Shown piece by piece: positions 6,901 to 16,202 of a DNA stretch of 33,423 nt. The notes beneath the pieces are model-generated. The model searched no databases. It saw nothing but the letters and a program-made list of their open reading frames with translations, and was not told the origin of the DNA. Numbering within the stretch: the stretch's first letter is position 1; the number at the start of each line of letters is the position of its first letter. This stretch comes from a virus (taxonomy: Duplodnaviria > Heunggongvirae > Uroviricota > Caudoviricetes), in the IMG/VR virus record IMGVR_UViG_2563366995_000002, one strand, 5' to 3'. Made by a program: the position numbers and the translations under genes.

Positions 6901-7054
6901 ATAACGCTTTGTATTTAATAGTGTTGTTTTTTAGCGTGGATGTATTGCCTCGGCGATGTAAGGAGAGATCAGAATTGCGTGGTTTAGTGGGTTGCATCTA
7001 TTTATTTTTCAATAAATATAATTGGTTATGTGTTTTTAGGTGGGCGAACGTGAG

Positions 7055-7083
7055 GCAAAGAAAACCCGGCGCTGAGGCCGGGT
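7055..7083 (-). terminator. rho-independent terminator ending the cI-geneA-geneB operon
   Basis: Minus strand: AACCCGGCCTCAGCGCCGGGTTTTCTTTG, GC-rich stem plus U-tract immediately after the stop of the 250-aa ORF; analogous to tIMM after rexB in lambda. Confidence 0.7.
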
Positions 7084-7087
7084 TGTA

Positions 7088-7840
7088 TTATGCTGCAAGT
7101 CTCTTAACCCAAGTCTCTCTTTTGGAGAATGGTAGAACTTGGCTTGATTCATGGAAGAGTAAGGAGAGTTGTTGCATTTGATCACCAATTGCTTCGCTGT
7201 CTATAACAACAAATCTGTTGTTATACTCCTCACTTGAAGCTTTAAGATCAATTAGTTTCCCAAGCAATGAGTAAGCACTATTCCAGCTTCCTCCGTGTTT
7301 CACGCTTGATGTAAAAACGTATTTAGGTATGTCGGTTTTTATTGTTACAGGGACGGTAATTTGATGTCCACTCAAGCCATATACGTTTTCACGAAGAGAA
7401 AGTGCGTCTCTAAGCTCTGTGTGATATAGATAATCAATAACCATACTTTCAAACTTTTCAGCTTGAACTGGCTGATACCAGTCTAACGACAAAGTTGATG
7501 CGAGTATACCAGCTCTAATTATGTTCGATGTAATCGCACCGACATCCTTTTCTGTTGCCCAAGCAATGATTTCTCCTCGAGCATTGAGTTCTGCGCCTTC
7601 TTTAAGCAGTAATTGTCGTATCTCATCAAGTCGTTTTTTGGTAAGCGAGATCCCTCTTGCCTCCATATTCATTAAGGCATCGCATCTGTCACTAACTAAA
7701 TACCTACCATTGACTTCACGGATAAAGGCACCGACATGCTCTCCATCATCACAGTAAGTGAATGGACTGATAATTCTCAAGGTCTTGCCTATTGGATGGC
7801 ATTCGAAACCTAGTTGTGAGATCACTGTTGAGCACATCAT
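7088..7840 (-). CDS. hypothetical protein B of cI-linked cassette (250 aa), function unknown
   Basis: ORF whose start overlaps the stop of the upstream 185-aa ORF by 4 nt (ATGA); followed by terminator; no motif I can assign. Confidence 0.8.
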   Translation of the reverse strand: MMCSTVISQLGFECHPIGKTLRIISPFTYCDDGEHVGAFIREVNGRYLVSDRCDALMNMEARGISLTKKRLDEIRQLLLKEGAELNARGEIIAWATEKDVGAITSNIIRAGILASTLSLDWYQPVQAEKFESMVIDYLYHTELRDALSLRENVYGLSGHQITVPVTIKTDIPKYVFTSSVKHGGSWNSAYSLLGKLIDLKASSEEYNNRFVVIDSEAIGDQMQQLSLLFHESSQVLPFSKRETWVKRLAA

Positions 7841-8394
7841 ATTCCAAACCCCATTTGCCCCGACTCATCTTCAAGCGGTAAAGGTATTCTCCCAGAGTAA
7901 GTTATGTTCAGATGTTTACAGAAGTAATTCCAATACCCTACCAGGTCATCTGGGTTTATGTCATCTTCGATTGGAAACGCTATTCTATCACTATAGTATC
8001 CAGCTTCTTCATAGTATACATGGTAGTGAGCACCGTAAATGATATCTTGGTACTTCGGATGATCGACCTTGTAACTATTCGTGTGTTTGTCAAAGTGATA
8101 GGTATCTACCGCGAAAACCCTCTTGTTATGATAGAAAGCAATAATATTTATTTTAGGGTAAGAAATCGGGTCATCAGGTTCTGAATCCTGATCTGGTTTC
8201 CATTTCAGTTCAAACTTTAGCCCTTGTATAGGTATACAATCCTCATCCAAGGGGATGATATGGGCTTGTAGCCACATATCAGAGCGACTTGGTTTCTGTT
8301 TCCATTTAACGCCAGAAAAGTTAACTATTTTTTTACAATAAAGTACTTTATCAACTTCTACTTGGCTTGGCTGATAATCATCTATTTTTGCCAA
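7837..8394 (-). CDS. hypothetical protein A of cI-linked cassette (185 aa), function unknown; start codon uncertain (TTG at 8394 with AGGGCGG SD, or downstream ATG)
   Basis: ORF begins about 40 bp downstream of cI stop on the same strand; Tyr/His/Trp-rich, no clear transmembrane segment; AT-rich codon usage. Confidence 0.7.
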   Translation of the reverse strand: MAKIDDYQPSQVEVDKVLYCKKIVNFSGVKWKQKPSRSDMWLQAHIIPLDEDCIPIQGLKFELKWKPDQDSEPDDPISYPKINIIAFYHNKRVFAVDTYHFDKHTNSYKVDHPKYQDIIYGAHYHVYYEEAGYYSDRIAFPIEDDINPDDLVGYWNYFCKHLNITYSGRIPLPLEDESGQMGFGI

Positions 8395-8433
8395 TGTTTA
8401 CCGCCCTGTAAATTGTAGATAAAAGTGGTTTCA

Positions 8434-9093
8434 TCACCCAAACGTCTCTTCAGGCCATTGGCTGGCGATAACTTTCCCCACAACGGAACAACTCTCATTG
8501 CATGGGATCATTGGGTATTGTGGGTTTAGTGGCTGTAGAAACACCTGACCGCTATCCCTGATCAGTTTCTTGAAGGTAAATTCATCACCACCAAGTCTGG
8601 CTATGCAGAAATCGCCGGGCTCAACAGCTTGCTCAGGGTCAACCAGAATTAACATCCCGTCAGGAAAGCTGGGTTTGGAACCTGTTGGTGCGGTCATTGA
8701 GTTACCTTCAACCTCAAGCCAGAATGCAGAGTCACTGGCTTTTTTGGTTGTGCTTACCAATCTCTCCGCATCGCCTTTGGTAAAGGTTCTGAGTTCTGGA
8801 GAGAACATCCCAGCCTGAACATGAGAAAAAACAGGGTACTCATATTGTTTTTTAACTGGGGCCGATGAGTATTCGCCAACAGGTGAAAATGTCCCGTCGT
8901 GGTTGAATGATATGTTATCAATACCAAGGTATTTAAACACCACACCAATATCACTAAGAGATGGATGACGAGATCCGCGCAACCAGTGTCCAATCCCACC
9001 CTGCGTCATACCTAGCTCTTCGGCTAACTTCTCTTGAGTTATGCCGAGCTCTTTCATTCTGGATCTAGCCAGTTCATACCATTTCATTTTCAT
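8434..9093 (-). CDS. cI: CI prophage repressor (LexA-like S24 autopeptidase); mosaic: novel N-terminal HTH domain fused to lambda-type C-terminal domain
   Basis: C-terminal ~130 aa match lambda CI ([20 protein letters not shown] ... [16 protein letters not shown]); N-terminal ~85 aa unrelated to lambda CI. Start could be 9093 or 9087 (MKMKW / MKW); ORF extends to 9135. Confidence 0.9.
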
Positions 9094-9204
9094 GTCCTTA
9101 TTATTACGCTCTGTACTGGAACCATCCATGCACAATGTGTATTTTTACTTGTATTCGCAAAGTACATATTGTATTTTTTTATTCGTGTTTACTATGGAGG
9201 GCAT
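9094..9204. promoter_or_regulatory. OR operator region with divergent promoters pRM and pR (approximate)
   Basis: Intergenic region between divergent cI and cro; inverted repeats TACTT-N9-AAGTA and TACA-TAT-TGTA; possible -10 TACTAT; shares AAAGTACATAT with the OL region. Confidence 0.6.
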
Positions 9205-9420
9205 ATGAGCAACCTACGAAAATATCGAGAGTCACTGAATATCTCTCAAACAACACTTGCTAAGGCAGTTGGATGCACACAGGGAGCTATCGGACATTGG
9301 GAATCTGGTCGTCGCTTCCCAGACCTTAAAACATGCCGTGCTCTTGTTGCGTGCCTAAACAAGTTAGGCGCAAAAGTCAGTCTTGATGACGTGTTCCCGC
9401 CGGAACACAAAGCCGCTTAA
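9205..9420 (+). CDS. cro: Cro-like HTH regulator (non-lambda)
   Basis: 71 aa from internal Met of ORF 9034..9420 with GGAGGG SD; HTH-like segment QTTLAKAVGCTQGAIGHWESG; first gene rightward of OR. Confidence 0.8.
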   Translation: MSNLRKYRESLNISQTTLAKAVGCTQGAIGHWESGRRFPDLKTCRALVACLNKLGAKVSLDDVFPPEHKAA

Positions 9421-9477: not shown

Positions 9478-9561
9478 TTCCAAGATATCTGACCAACTAA
9501 GGCCATATGCGTTTCCACGCATACCTTTCAACTAACTATTCACTATTGGAAATCTTAAGAA

Positions 9562-9858
9562 ATGGAAAGAACAAGTTACAGCAAACTATCACAGCGTGAC
9601 GTTGATCGCGCAGAAACAGATTTACTTATCAATCTGTCAGCTATTACCCAGCGCGGTCTGGCAAAGATGATTGGCTGTCATGAATCGAAGATAAGCAGAA
9701 CGGACTGGAGATTTATTGCTTCGGTCTTGTGTGCTTTCGGAATGGCATCAGACATCAGTCCGATTAGCAGGGCTTTTAAGTATGCGCTTGATGGACTCAC
9801 CAATAAAAAACGCCCGGCGGCAACCGAGCGTTCTGAACAAATCCAGATGGAATTCTGA
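9562..9858 (+). CDS. cII: CII transcriptional activator (hybrid: divergent N-terminus, lambda-identical C-terminus)
   Basis: C-terminal LTNKKRPAATERSEQIQMEF matches lambda CII; N-terminal region differs. Confidence 0.85.
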   Translation: MERTSYSKLSQRDVDRAETDLLINLSAITQRGLAKMIGCHESKISRTDWRFIASVLCAFGMASDISPISRAFKYALDGLTNKKRPAATERSEQIQMEF

Positions 9859-9890
9859 GGTCATTACTGGATCAATCCACAGGAGTCATT

Positions 9891-14121: not shown

Positions 14122-14505
14122 ATGCGTGATATTCAGATGGTTCTTGAGCGTTGGGGTGCGTGGGCGGCTAATAATCATGAAGATGTGACCTGGTCGTCCA
14201 TTGCCGCCGGTTTTAAGGGATTAATTCCTTCAAAAGTAAAATCTCGCCCGCAATGTTGTGACGATGACGCGATGATCATTTGCGGGTGCATGGCCCGTCT
14301 GAAAAAGAACAACAGCGATTTACACGATTTATTAGTAGATTATTATGTATGTGGTATGACATTCATGTCACTGGCAAGTAAGCATTGCTGCTCGGATGGT
14401 TATATCGGGAAAAGGTTACAGAAGGCTGAGGGCATAATTGAAGGGATGTTAATGGCATTAGATATCCGGTTAGATATGGATATCGTTGCTAATAATTCTA
14501 ATTGA
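14122..14505 (+). CDS. Q: late antiterminator Q (phage 21 / DLP12 QuuD type)
   Basis: [24 protein letters not shown]... matches DLP12 QuuD; cysteine cluster [12 protein letters not shown]; ATG at 14122 after GGAG SD. Confidence 0.9.
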
Positions 14506-14532
14506 TATGCAATTGTTTACTAAAAGTTATTA

Positions 14533-14560
14533 AAAATGGGGCGTGGAAACGCCCCCAAAA
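14533..14560 (-). terminator. putative terminator for the porin transcript (minus strand)
   Basis: Minus strand GGGGCGTTTCCACGCCCC followed by ATTTTTAAT. Confidence 0.45.
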
Positions 14561-14641
14561 TAAAGGGTAATATATAACAGAAGGTTTATATAGTAAGAAG
14601 CAAGGTAGTGCTTCTAAAGGAAGTGGCTTGAGGGCTCCACT

Positions 14642-14684
14642 TATATGTTGCGGAGGCAAAGCCTCCCGCAACATATCTTTTTCG
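14642..14684 (+). terminator. strong rho-independent terminator between Q and the convergent porin gene
   Basis: About 14-bp stem ATATGTTGCGGAGG / CCTCCCGCAACATAT with CAAAG loop, followed by CTTTTTCG. Confidence 0.65.
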
Positions 14685-14693
14685 TAAGTCAGA

Positions 14694-15776
14694 TTAGAAC
14701 TGATAAACCAGACCTACAGCGACGATGTCGTCGGTATCAATACCAGCTGTTTTGGTAAACTTACTATCGTCAATTAAGTTGATTTTGTAATCAACAAAAG
14801 TGGACATGTTTTTATTAAAGTAGTAAGTAGCACCGACATCGACATACTTGACTAAGTCTCGGTCACCATGAACACCAAGGTCTTTACCTTTTGACTGAAG
14901 GTAAGCAACAGATGGACGCAGACCGAAGTCAAACTGATATTGTGCTACTGCTTCAAAGTTTTGTGCTTTGTTTGCAATATGGTTATTACCAAAAACGGTC
15001 ATATTCTGAGTTTCAGAATATGTGGTAGCCAGATAGATATTGTTCGCATCATATTTCAGGCCTGCAGCCCATACTTCCGCATTTTTGCCGGAGGCATTGA
15101 ATTTGCTCTTACCATAGGCGACCTGACCGTCAGTGCGATCTGATTTAGCATAGGTTGCACCCACGCCGAATCCTTCATACTCATAAGTAGTGGAGAAACC
15201 GAAACCATCACCATTGGCTTCAGTTACGTCAGTGCGGTCATTTTTACCCTGATACTGAGCAGCAAAGTTCAGGCCATCGACCAGACCAAAGAAGTCGTTG
15301 TTACGATAAGTTGCAACACCAGTAGTGCGACCAGTCATGAACACATCTGTTTGGGTCCAGGTATCACCACCGAATTCTGGCAGAACGTCAGTCCACGCAC
15401 CGATGTCGTATGCTACACCGTAGTTACGGCCGTAATCGATTGAGCCGTAATCACCAAATTTCAGGCCTGCAAATGCAAGACGGGTTTTGTCTTTGGAAGA
15501 ACCTTGAGATTCAGCACGGTTGCCTTTGAATTCATATTCCCACTGACCGAAACCAGTCAGTTGATCGTTGATTTGGGTTTCACCTTTGAAGCCAAGACGG
15601 GCATAAGTAGTATCACCATCATCTGCATCATTAGAGGAGAAGTAGTGCTTGGCATTAACTTTCCCGTATAGATCCAGCTTGTTACTGTCTTTATTATAAA
15701 TTTCAGCTGCCTGAGCAGACATCGCCATCAGTACTGATGCAGCTACAGCAGAAATTGCCACTGTTAATTTTTTCAT
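14694..15776 (-). CDS. nmpC: OmpC/OmpF-family outer membrane porin (NmpC / Lc-like), intact moron
   Basis: Signal peptide [23 protein letters not shown] then AEIYNKD..., C-terminal VGLVYQF beta-barrel signature; located between Q and the lysis cassette as in DLP12. Start taken at internal Met of ORF 14694..15836. Confidence 0.9.
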
Positions 15777-16202
15777 TGTACGCCCTTTTTTTGAACTATT
15801 ATTAAAAAATGATGTCACTGCGCGATAAATATTCATCTAATCAATGTGATTATTTCAAGATGTAAGTTTTAGTTTCTCATTTAATTTGTGAAGTAGATCT
15901 CTATTTTTATCTGAACCTTTTCTATCTAATCCTATTCATGGCTCTTGTCTGAACAAAAATAAATCTATTAGCTAATTTATATTAATGGCACTTATTTATA
16001 AGTGCTCTATAATTCTTTAGCTTAATTTAAACAAACTAAAAATAACATTGGAAATTATTAACTGGTTATTTGTTGAAGTTTTCTTATGCATTTGTGGTGG
16101 TGTTTTGAACACTCGGTGGCATTCTCACAAATATCATTTAGTAGTTTACGTACGTAAAAAATTGGTTATGCTGTTAAGAGTGGTTACTTCGTCACACAGC
16201 TT

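What the first reader, a model, noticed from the sequence alone, without database searches (positions are those of the whole stretch)
7055..8433. Uncharacterised two-gene, AT-rich cassette in the rexAB slot, co-transcribed with the prophage repressor: candidate novel exclusion/defence system
Seen in sequence: the cI repressor gene is followed on the same strand, after about 40 bp, by a 185-aa ORF (TTG start with AGGGCGG Shine-Dalgarno) and a 250-aa ORF overlapping it by 4 nt (ATGA), then a strong rho-independent terminator (7055..7083). Lines sampled by eye give about 33-38 percent GC, versus about 50 percent in the flanking lambda-like genes, suggesting horizontal acquisition. Neither protein shows a motif I can assign, and neither resembles RexA, RexB or a transmembrane protein. 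Established knowledge: in lambda this position holds rexA-rexB, expressed from pRM in lysogens to exclude other phages, and in lambdoid prophages it is a variable locus carrying diverse exclusion genes. Inference: the cassette is a lysogen-expressed anti-phage or abortive-infection module, possibly a toxin/sensor pair.
Basis: partly seen in the sequence, partly recalled or inferred. Interest (0 to 1): 0.85.

Follow-up and report, generated by a model that had tools for sequence, protein, structure and literature searches.

The report
Uncharacterised repressor-linked two-gene prophage cassette
A lambda-like prophage carries, exactly where phage lambda has its rexA-rexB exclusion genes, a conserved pair of unstudied genes that always travels just behind the phage repressor gene in many bacteria; it is a good but untested candidate for a new anti-phage protection system.

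Summary
Two overlapping genes (A, 185 aa, 7837-8394; B, 250 aa, 7088-7840, minus strand) lie 39 nt after a cI-type repressor and end at an intrinsic terminator. Alignment to lambda shows that 7085-8432 replaces rexB-rexA exactly, between conserved flanks.

The pair is real and under selection. In 88 of 88 related loci A ends 4 nt inside B. In 86 of 88 an S24 repressor lies upstream on the same strand, although the repressors fall into many types. The same layout is seen at 20-30% identity in a Pseudomonas phage and in metagenomic contigs.

A has no solved structural relative and carries an invariant His/Asn/Asp cluster. B combines a chaperone-like DUF1828 domain with a restriction-endonuclease-like domain that lacks the canonical catalytic residues.

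The only links to defence are the slot itself and distant homology of both proteins to PDC-M24, a PADLOC candidate predicted by computation and never tested. No experimental data were found.

Verdict: a plausible lysogen-expressed exclusion module (about 0.55) with an unknown mechanism. It is a new variant of a known kind, with interest of about 0.5.

The parts
8434..9135 (-). cI-type prophage repressor (HTH_3 plus Peptidase_S24). Its C-terminal part, 8433-8844, is 93% identical to lambda cI DNA.
   Evidence: annotated cI / LexA family protein in PhiR57_1 and Nissle 1917
8395..8433 (-). 39-nt cI-A spacer carrying the AGGGCGG ribosome-binding site; no terminator
7837..8394 (-). Gene A: 185 aa, TTG start, soluble, pI 5.3. 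It belongs to PHROG 2017 and is a distant relative of DUF6978 / PDC-M24A. Residues invariant across the family are K22, W31, R92, N106, H123, H125, F158 and P173, with D97, H104 and Q180 nearly invariant.
7088..7840 (-). Gene B: 250 aa, starting in the ATGA overlap with A. It has an N-terminal DUF1828 domain with a T3SS-chaperone/YbjN-like fold. Its C-terminal domain has a restriction-endonuclease-like, DUF1829-like fold with a conserved GxSG[H/R] loop, W186, D198 and R209. It belongs to PHROG 1960 and is a sister of PDC-M24B.
7053..7084 (-). Intrinsic terminator (the lambda tImm equivalent) directly after the B stop codon
   Evidence: 90% identity to lambda 35708-35826; equivalent terminators follow B in 46 of 49 distinct related loci
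7085..8432 (.). The 1348-bp substituted segment that occupies the place of lambda 35827-37225 (rexB, rexA and spacer); GC 39.5%
9136..9205 (.). Divergent cI/cro control region, the presumed pRM/pR region from which the operon would be transcribed (inferred, not mapped)
   Evidence: gene layout; analogy with lambda

Best explanation
The cassette is an accessory two-gene operon extension of the prophage repressor gene. I infer that it is transcribed with cI in lysogens and ends at the tImm-like terminator. It most likely makes a cytoplasmic A-B protein complex that protects the lysogen against other phages, as an exclusion or abortive-infection module that fills the role of rexAB by a different, non-membrane mechanism.

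Shown here: exact replacement of rexAB; strict A-then-B pairing with a 4-nt overlap; strict placement behind S24/HTH repressors of many immunity types; purifying selection; and superfamily-level homology of both proteins to the PADLOC candidate PDC-M24.

Inferred: B uses its chaperone-like DUF1828 domain to bind a protein (A or a phage product), and its endonuclease-fold domain to bind or cut nucleic acid. A, with its invariant D97/H104/N106/H123/H125 cluster, is a metal-dependent partner. Which of the two is the sensor and which is the effector is not resolved.
Against: No experiment on these genes was found. PDC-M24 itself is untested. B lacks the canonical D...(D/E)xK residues: K173 is not conserved and H159 is H or R, so nuclease activity is doubtful. 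A has no recognisable fold or family that would indicate a function. The near-absolute linkage to repressor genes over deep divergence is unusual for free-standing defence systems, and could instead mean a role tied to the lysogenic switch. No copy was found on plasmids, and none of the contexts examined here was a defence island.
Confidence: 0.55

Rival explanations
1. A-B modulates the lysis-lysogeny switch or prophage induction rather than excluding other phages. Lambda RexA/RexB have been reported to do this in addition to their exclusion role.
For: The module sits behind an S24 or HTH repressor in essentially every context seen, down to 20-25% identity. Such tight linkage suggests a function tied to the repressor operon. 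[quoted passage not shown]
Against: Cassette type is decoupled from repressor type, so a specific A/B-repressor interaction is unlikely. Many lambdoid phages lack the module or carry unrelated genes in the slot. Relatives (PDC-M24) were reported embedded in RM, BREX or DISARM loci, away from repressors. The module is kept in a non-inducible prophage remnant in Nissle 1917.
Confidence: 0.15
2. A-B is a toxin-antitoxin-like addiction module that stabilises the prophage, with B as a nuclease-fold toxin and A as its upstream neutraliser.
For: It consists of two small, translationally coupled genes with the putative neutraliser first. B has an endonuclease-like fold. A has a conserved, disordered C-terminal tail that could dock onto B. 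The module is retained in decayed prophages.
Against: There is no promoter of its own above chance. A has no DNA-binding domain. B lacks the catalytic residues. No TA family was hit in Pfam, NCBIfam or PADLOC.
Confidence: 0.1
3. It has another lysogenic-conversion or housekeeping function that benefits the host, for example in DNA repair or metabolism, unrelated to phages.
For: Both proteins are of unknown function. The low GC and moron-like position resemble other cargo genes in this prophage, such as the porin gene at 14694-15836.
Against: Both proteins are cytoplasmic with no signal peptide or transmembrane segment. The module is found only in temperate-phage immunity regions. The only homology to anything outside uncharacterised DUF and phage families is to a defence candidate.
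Confidence: 0.1

Closest known systems
Phage lambda rexA-rexB exclusion operon
   Same: Identical genomic slot between the cI stop and the tImm terminator. Both are two genes on the cI strand and so presumably expressed in lysogens. Both are accessory, being absent from many lambdoid phages.
   Different: No sequence similarity. No membrane protein, whereas RexB is a polytopic membrane channel (established knowledge) and A and B are soluble. The folds differ. The mechanism therefore cannot be Rex-like membrane depolarisation.
PADLOC phage defence candidate PDC-M24 (Payne et al. 2024, bioRxiv 10.1101/2024.01.29.577857)
   Same: It is a two-gene A-then-B system. B matches PDC-M24B over its full length, as do 10 of 11 family members. 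A matches the C-terminal half of PDC-M24A. PDC-M24 is the only PADLOC family hit.
   Different: The scores are low (B 37.5 bits, A 18 bits), so this is a sister family rather than a member. PDC-M24 was defined from copies embedded in BREX, DISARM or type I RM loci, whereas this family was seen only behind phage repressors. PDC-M24 has no experimental support.
Pfam DUF1828 / DUF1829 and DUF6978 proteins
   Same: B's N-terminal domain passes the DUF1828 threshold. One distant B relative weakly hits DUF1829 with its C-terminal domain. DUF6978-type A relatives are also followed by DUF1828 genes.
   Different: These are families of unknown function, so membership gives no mechanism. A is below the DUF6978 threshold (22 against 29.6 bits).
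PD-(D/E)xK nucleases fused to a sensor domain, for example the CRISPR ancillary nuclease Can2 and NgoMIV/Cfr10I-type restriction enzymes
   Different: The catalytic D...(D/E)xK residues are not conserved. The conserved positions are instead a GxSG[H/R] loop, W186, D198 and R209. The N-terminal domain is chaperone/YbjN-like, not CARF.
Other repressor-adjacent prophage defence genes, for example BstA of Salmonella phage BTP1
   Same: Same general logic: a defence gene carried by a prophage and expressed in the lysogen (PMC8585504 abstract).
   Different: Unrelated proteins, and BstA is a single gene. No PADLOC hit other than PDC-M24.

Membership tests
lambda RexAB | Sequence homology to RexA and RexB | tested here: not met
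   BLASTP best E = 1.0
lambda RexAB | Second component is a polytopic inner-membrane protein | tested here: not met
   Maximum 19-residue Kyte-Doolittle hydropathy is 0.45 for A and 1.19 for B
lambda RexAB | Located between cI and tImm on the cI strand | tested here: met
   The flanks align to lambda 35708-35826 and 37226-37637
PADLOC PDC-M24 | B component matches the PDC-M24B HMM | tested here: inconclusive
   E 4.7e-10, 37.5 bits, full length; 10 of 11 family members hit, best 4.9e-15. The scores indicate a sister group, and PADLOC's own cut-offs are not available here.
PADLOC PDC-M24 | A component matches the PDC-M24A HMM | tested here: not met
   18.1 bits, E 4.8e-4, covering only residues 104-163; only 2 of 23 family members hit each of two PDC-M24A models
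PADLOC PDC-M24 | Adjacent A-then-B gene order | tested here: met
   88 of 88 loci; PDC-M24 is FAM_00129>>FAM_00065
PADLOC PDC-M24 | Anti-phage activity | not testable with these tools
   PDC systems were predicted, not tested
Pfam DUF1828 | Score above the gathering threshold | tested here: met
   33.5 bits against 22, residues 26-110 of B
Pfam DUF6978 | Score above the gathering threshold | tested here: not met
   22 bits against 29.6, C-terminal third of A only
PD-(D/E)xK nuclease superfamily | Restriction-endonuclease-like alpha-beta-beta-beta-alpha-beta core fold | tested here: met
PD-(D/E)xK nuclease superfamily | Conserved catalytic D...(D/E)xK residues | tested here: not met
   K173 is replaced in distant members, H159 is H or R, and there is no conserved acidic residue on strands 2 or 3. 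Judged from sequence and secondary structure, not from a structural superposition.
Type II toxin-antitoxin | Own autoregulated promoter and an antitoxin with a DNA-binding domain | tested here: not met
   No promoter above chance; no HTH, RHH or AbrB domain in A
Type II toxin-antitoxin | Toxicity of one component, neutralised by the other | not testable with these tools
   Requires expression experiments
PHROG 2017 / PHROG 1960 | HMM match | tested here: met
   E 6.2e-67 and 1.6e-106; both families are of unknown function

The most novel reading that the evidence does not exclude
The A-B pair may be more than interchangeable defence cargo. It could be a widespread, ancient partner of S24/HTH phage repressors, kept behind them from Enterobacterales to Pseudomonas and in uncultured relatives at 20-25% identity. 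It would work by a new biochemical mechanism: a His-cluster enzyme of a previously unseen fold (A) coupled to a catalytically degenerate endonuclease-fold protein with a chaperone-like domain (B). Such a pair might sense superinfecting or replicating phage DNA and feed into the lysogenic switch as well as into exclusion.
Probability: 0.2. Interest if true: 0.7.

Novelty: new variant of a known kind. Interest (0 to 1): 0.5.

Why it matters
If the cassette protects lysogens, it would add a mechanistically new, membrane-independent system to the set of repressor-linked exclusion genes. It would also give the first functional handle on the DUF1828/DUF6978 gene pair and on the PADLOC candidate PDC-M24.

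It is present in about 4% of complete E. coli genomes. These include the probiotic Nissle 1917, the reference strain ATCC 25922 and the species type strain. It could therefore affect phage-therapy host range, and it might account for part of the unexplained phage resistance of Nissle 1917 noted in PMC5987069.

Tried and rejected
- **Family scans.** NCBIfam gave nothing usable.
- **Solved structures, by sequence.** Profiles of A and B found no relatives. A profile of the wider A family produced one apparent hit, to a designed Kelch-repeat protein. It is a summed-repeat artefact, with each stretch at E about 85, so I rejected it.
- **AFDB fold search.** Not available.
- **HK542/HK244 cassette.** The two-gene cassette in the same slot in these phages is unrelated.
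- **Plasmids.** tblastn found no copy.
- **Literature.** Searches for DUF1828, DUF6978, PDC-M24, PhiR phage names, rexAB hotspots and ECOR prophage defence found no study of these genes. The last search was wasted on word-start matches to 'ci'. Brenes & Laub 2025 (Cell Host Microbe) is not held, so I could not check whether it tested this cassette. The supplements of the language-model defence preprint hold no DUF1828 or DUF6978 entry.
- **Nissle 1917 'phage repressor'.** This reported resistance gene is not the cI next to the cassette but the cII-like gene.

Full report
**1. What is in the sequence**

On the minus strand the window carries three genes in a row:
- a cI-type repressor at 8434..9135 (HTH_3 plus Peptidase_S24, E 1.3e-28);
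- after a 39-nt spacer, a 185-aa ORF with a TTG start (gene A, 7837..8394);
- a 250-aa ORF (gene B, 7088..7840) whose ATG lies in an ATGA overlap with the stop codon of A.

B is followed directly by an intrinsic terminator: an 8-bp stem with 6 GC pairs at 7084..7063, then a T-rich tail. No terminator lies between cI and A. Promoter-like matches in the region do not exceed the number expected by chance (5 found, 6.0 expected).

The TTG start of A is supported by homologues. They all begin M-A-K at the same position, and some use ATG or GTG there.

GC content is 38.2% for A, 40.6% for B and 39.5% for the cassette, against 50.0% for the window. That places the cassette in the lowest 0.5% of windows of the same size. 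Neighbouring early genes are themselves only 41-50% GC.

Neither protein has a transmembrane segment, and neither resembles RexA or RexB.

**2. The slot**

The surrounding genes are those of a lambda-like phage: exo, bet, gam, kil, cIII, ea10, ral, sieB, N, then the cassette, cI, cro, cII, O, P and ren.

Aligning the window to lambda gives two flanking matches:
- window 6963-7084 matches lambda 35708-35826 at 90% identity. This match ends at the rexB stop codon and includes the tImm terminator;
- window 8433-8844 matches lambda 37226-37637 at 93% identity. This match starts at the cI stop codon (lambda annotation).

So 7085-8432 (1348 bp) is a precise substitute for lambda rexB-rexA and their spacer.

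Other phages share the same terminator flank but carry different contents. Some have rexAB (lambda, SfI, ev243). HK542 and HK244 have an unrelated two-gene cassette. The slot is therefore a real site of cassette exchange.

**3. Distribution**

The cassette is 100% identical in coliphages ev207, ev017, PhiR57_1 and PhiR63_2, and 99.3% identical in an Stx1a phage. In those records both genes are annotated only as hypothetical or DUF1828.

It is present in 239 of 5426 complete E. coli genomes. These include Nissle 1917, ATCC 25922 and the type strain DSM 30083.

In Nissle 1917 the prophage at icd has lost its integrase end to an IS element and lacks the early-left genes, but it keeps sieB, N, the cassette and cI.

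No copy was found on plasmids.

**4. Conservation of the pair and of its position**

Protein searches found B homologues (47-84% identity) and A homologues (37-71% identity) across Enterobacterales and Aeromonas.

I examined 88 loci from reference genomes, IMG/VR and GenBank phage records:
- in all 88, an A homologue ends exactly 4 nt inside B;
- in 86 of 88, an S24 repressor ORF lies upstream on the same strand, 29-770 nt away;
- a few loci hold one extra small gene between the repressor and A.

An intrinsic terminator follows B in 46 of 49 distinct downstream sequences.

The repressors are much more diverse than the cassette. They form 38 clusters at 80% identity and 24 at 60%, against 15 and 6 for A and 10 and 5 for B. 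Cassette identity is also decoupled from repressor identity. Cassettes 99% identical to this one sit next to cI genes that are 69% or about 36% identical, while a 51%-identical cassette sits next to a 71%-identical cI.

dN is 0.1-0.5 while dS is saturated, which indicates strong purifying selection on both genes.

**5. Deep relatives**

A Pseudomonas D3-like phage has a CI-like repressor, one extra gene, an unannotated A-like ORF and a B-like gene (29.5% identity), again with the 4-nt overlap.

An exhaustive profile search with A found only 32 clusters at E <= 0.001 among 1.8 billion representative proteins, so the family is small.

I looked up the contigs of ten distant A relatives (20-26% identity). 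Every one is followed by a downstream gene, usually with the 4-nt overlap, and wherever that gene could be classified it is a DUF1828 gene. An S24 or HTH_3 gene lies upstream on the same strand in the three relatives with the longest contigs (L097, L098, L101, L102, L103). Several short contigs could not show this, and two (L093, L112) carry a resolvase gene next to the pair instead.

DUF6978-type A proteins are paired with DUF1828 genes in the same way.

**6. The proteins**

Across the wide family the invariant residues are K22, W31, R92, N106, H123, H125, F158 and P173. D97, H104 and Q180 are nearly invariant. Several of these alternate along adjacent strands (secondary structure). That suggests, but does not prove, a metal-binding or catalytic site.

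The conserved C-terminal tail ending in G-Q is predicted to be disordered.

*Protein B.* The model has pLDDT 82.5 and two domains:

The canonical catalytic residues are not conserved, however. K173 is lost in distant members and H159 alternates with R. The conserved positions are a GxSG[H/R] loop, W186, D198 and R209. One distant member weakly hits Pfam DUF1829 with this domain.

B may therefore bind rather than cut nucleic acid, and A may be the enzymatic partner. This is not resolved.

**7. Link to known systems**

In PADLOC, B matches only PDC-M24B (E 4.7e-10, full length) and A matches only PDC-M24A (E 4.8e-4, partial). Ten of 11 diverse B relatives hit PDC-M24B (best E 4.9e-15), but only a few A relatives hit PDC-M24A.

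PDC-M24 is a two-gene candidate with the same gene order. It was predicted because copies are embedded in BREX, DISARM or type I RM loci, and it was not tested.

The window cassette is thus a sister family of an untested candidate, not a member of a validated system.

No paper in the held library studies these genes. One relevant paper on ECOR prophage defence could not be read.

**8. Interpretation**

The best-supported reading is a lysogen-expressed, cytoplasmic two-protein exclusion or defence module that occupies the rexAB niche but works differently. I put its confidence at about 0.55.

The main rival, at about 0.15, is a role in the lysogenic switch. It is suggested by the near-absolute linkage to repressor genes and by the reported second role of RexA/RexB. 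It is weakened by the decoupling from repressor type and by retention of the cassette in a dead prophage.

A toxin-antitoxin-like stabiliser and an unrelated host-benefit function are each about 0.1.

The mechanism, including which protein senses and which acts, is inference only.

**9. Verdict**

I rate it a new variant of a known kind, with interest of about 0.5.

Noticed in passing
window 9516-9885 (cII-like gene 9562..9858, + strand): The cloning and qPCR primers for the 'phage repressor (pr), EcN_1294' gene map here. That gene was reported to give E. coli Nissle 1917 partial resistance to lambda and Stx phages (PMC5987069). The target is the cII-like activator gene, not the cI repressor, so the reported effect may reflect cII overexpression.
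   Followed up: partly
L106 17081-18686 (E. coli Nissle 1917 chromosome, prophage at icd): The Nissle copy of this prophage has a truncated integrase and a frameshifted ISEc52 where the early-left genes (exo, bet, gam and others) would be. It still keeps sieB, N, the cassette, cI, cro and cII intact.
   Followed up: partly
L002 3093-4144 (phage HK542; also HK244): An unrelated pair of overlapping hypothetical genes (144 and 206 aa) occupies the same slot between cI and the shared terminator. It is another uncharacterised candidate cassette.
   Followed up: partly
L003 7044-7385; L009 7010-7354; L011 3680-4330: In some relatives one extra, mutually unrelated gene sits between the repressor and gene A. 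These are a 113-aa soluble protein, a 114-aa hydrophobic protein and a 216-aa protein in the Pseudomonas phage. The slot can therefore hold more than one cargo gene.
   Followed up: no
window 14694-15836 (- strand) and surrounding ~14750-16100: This is a second low-GC patch (about 39%). It coincides with a 380-aa ORF on the opposite strand downstream of the Q antiterminator. The equivalent gene is annotated as porin OmpC in the Nissle prophage, a typical lambdoid moron.
   Followed up: partly
L010 (518-bp contig NZ_JBHSON010000334.1 of an Actinomadura rugatobispora assembly): This tiny contig carries the A/B junction at 64-82% protein identity to the enterobacterial cassette. It is most likely contaminating enterobacterial DNA in an actinomycete assembly.
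   Followed up: no
L011 4420-5004 (Pseudomonas phage VB_PaD_phPA-G, PP083311.1 about 14449-15033): The A-like gene upstream of the annotated B-like CDS is not annotated in the GenBank record. There is a 670-nt gap in the annotation at that position.
   Followed up: yes
L102 1321-1557 and L103 1046-1282: In these metagenomic contigs only a 78-aa remnant of the S24 repressor precedes an intact A-B pair. This suggests the pair can outlive the rest of the prophage.
   Followed up: no
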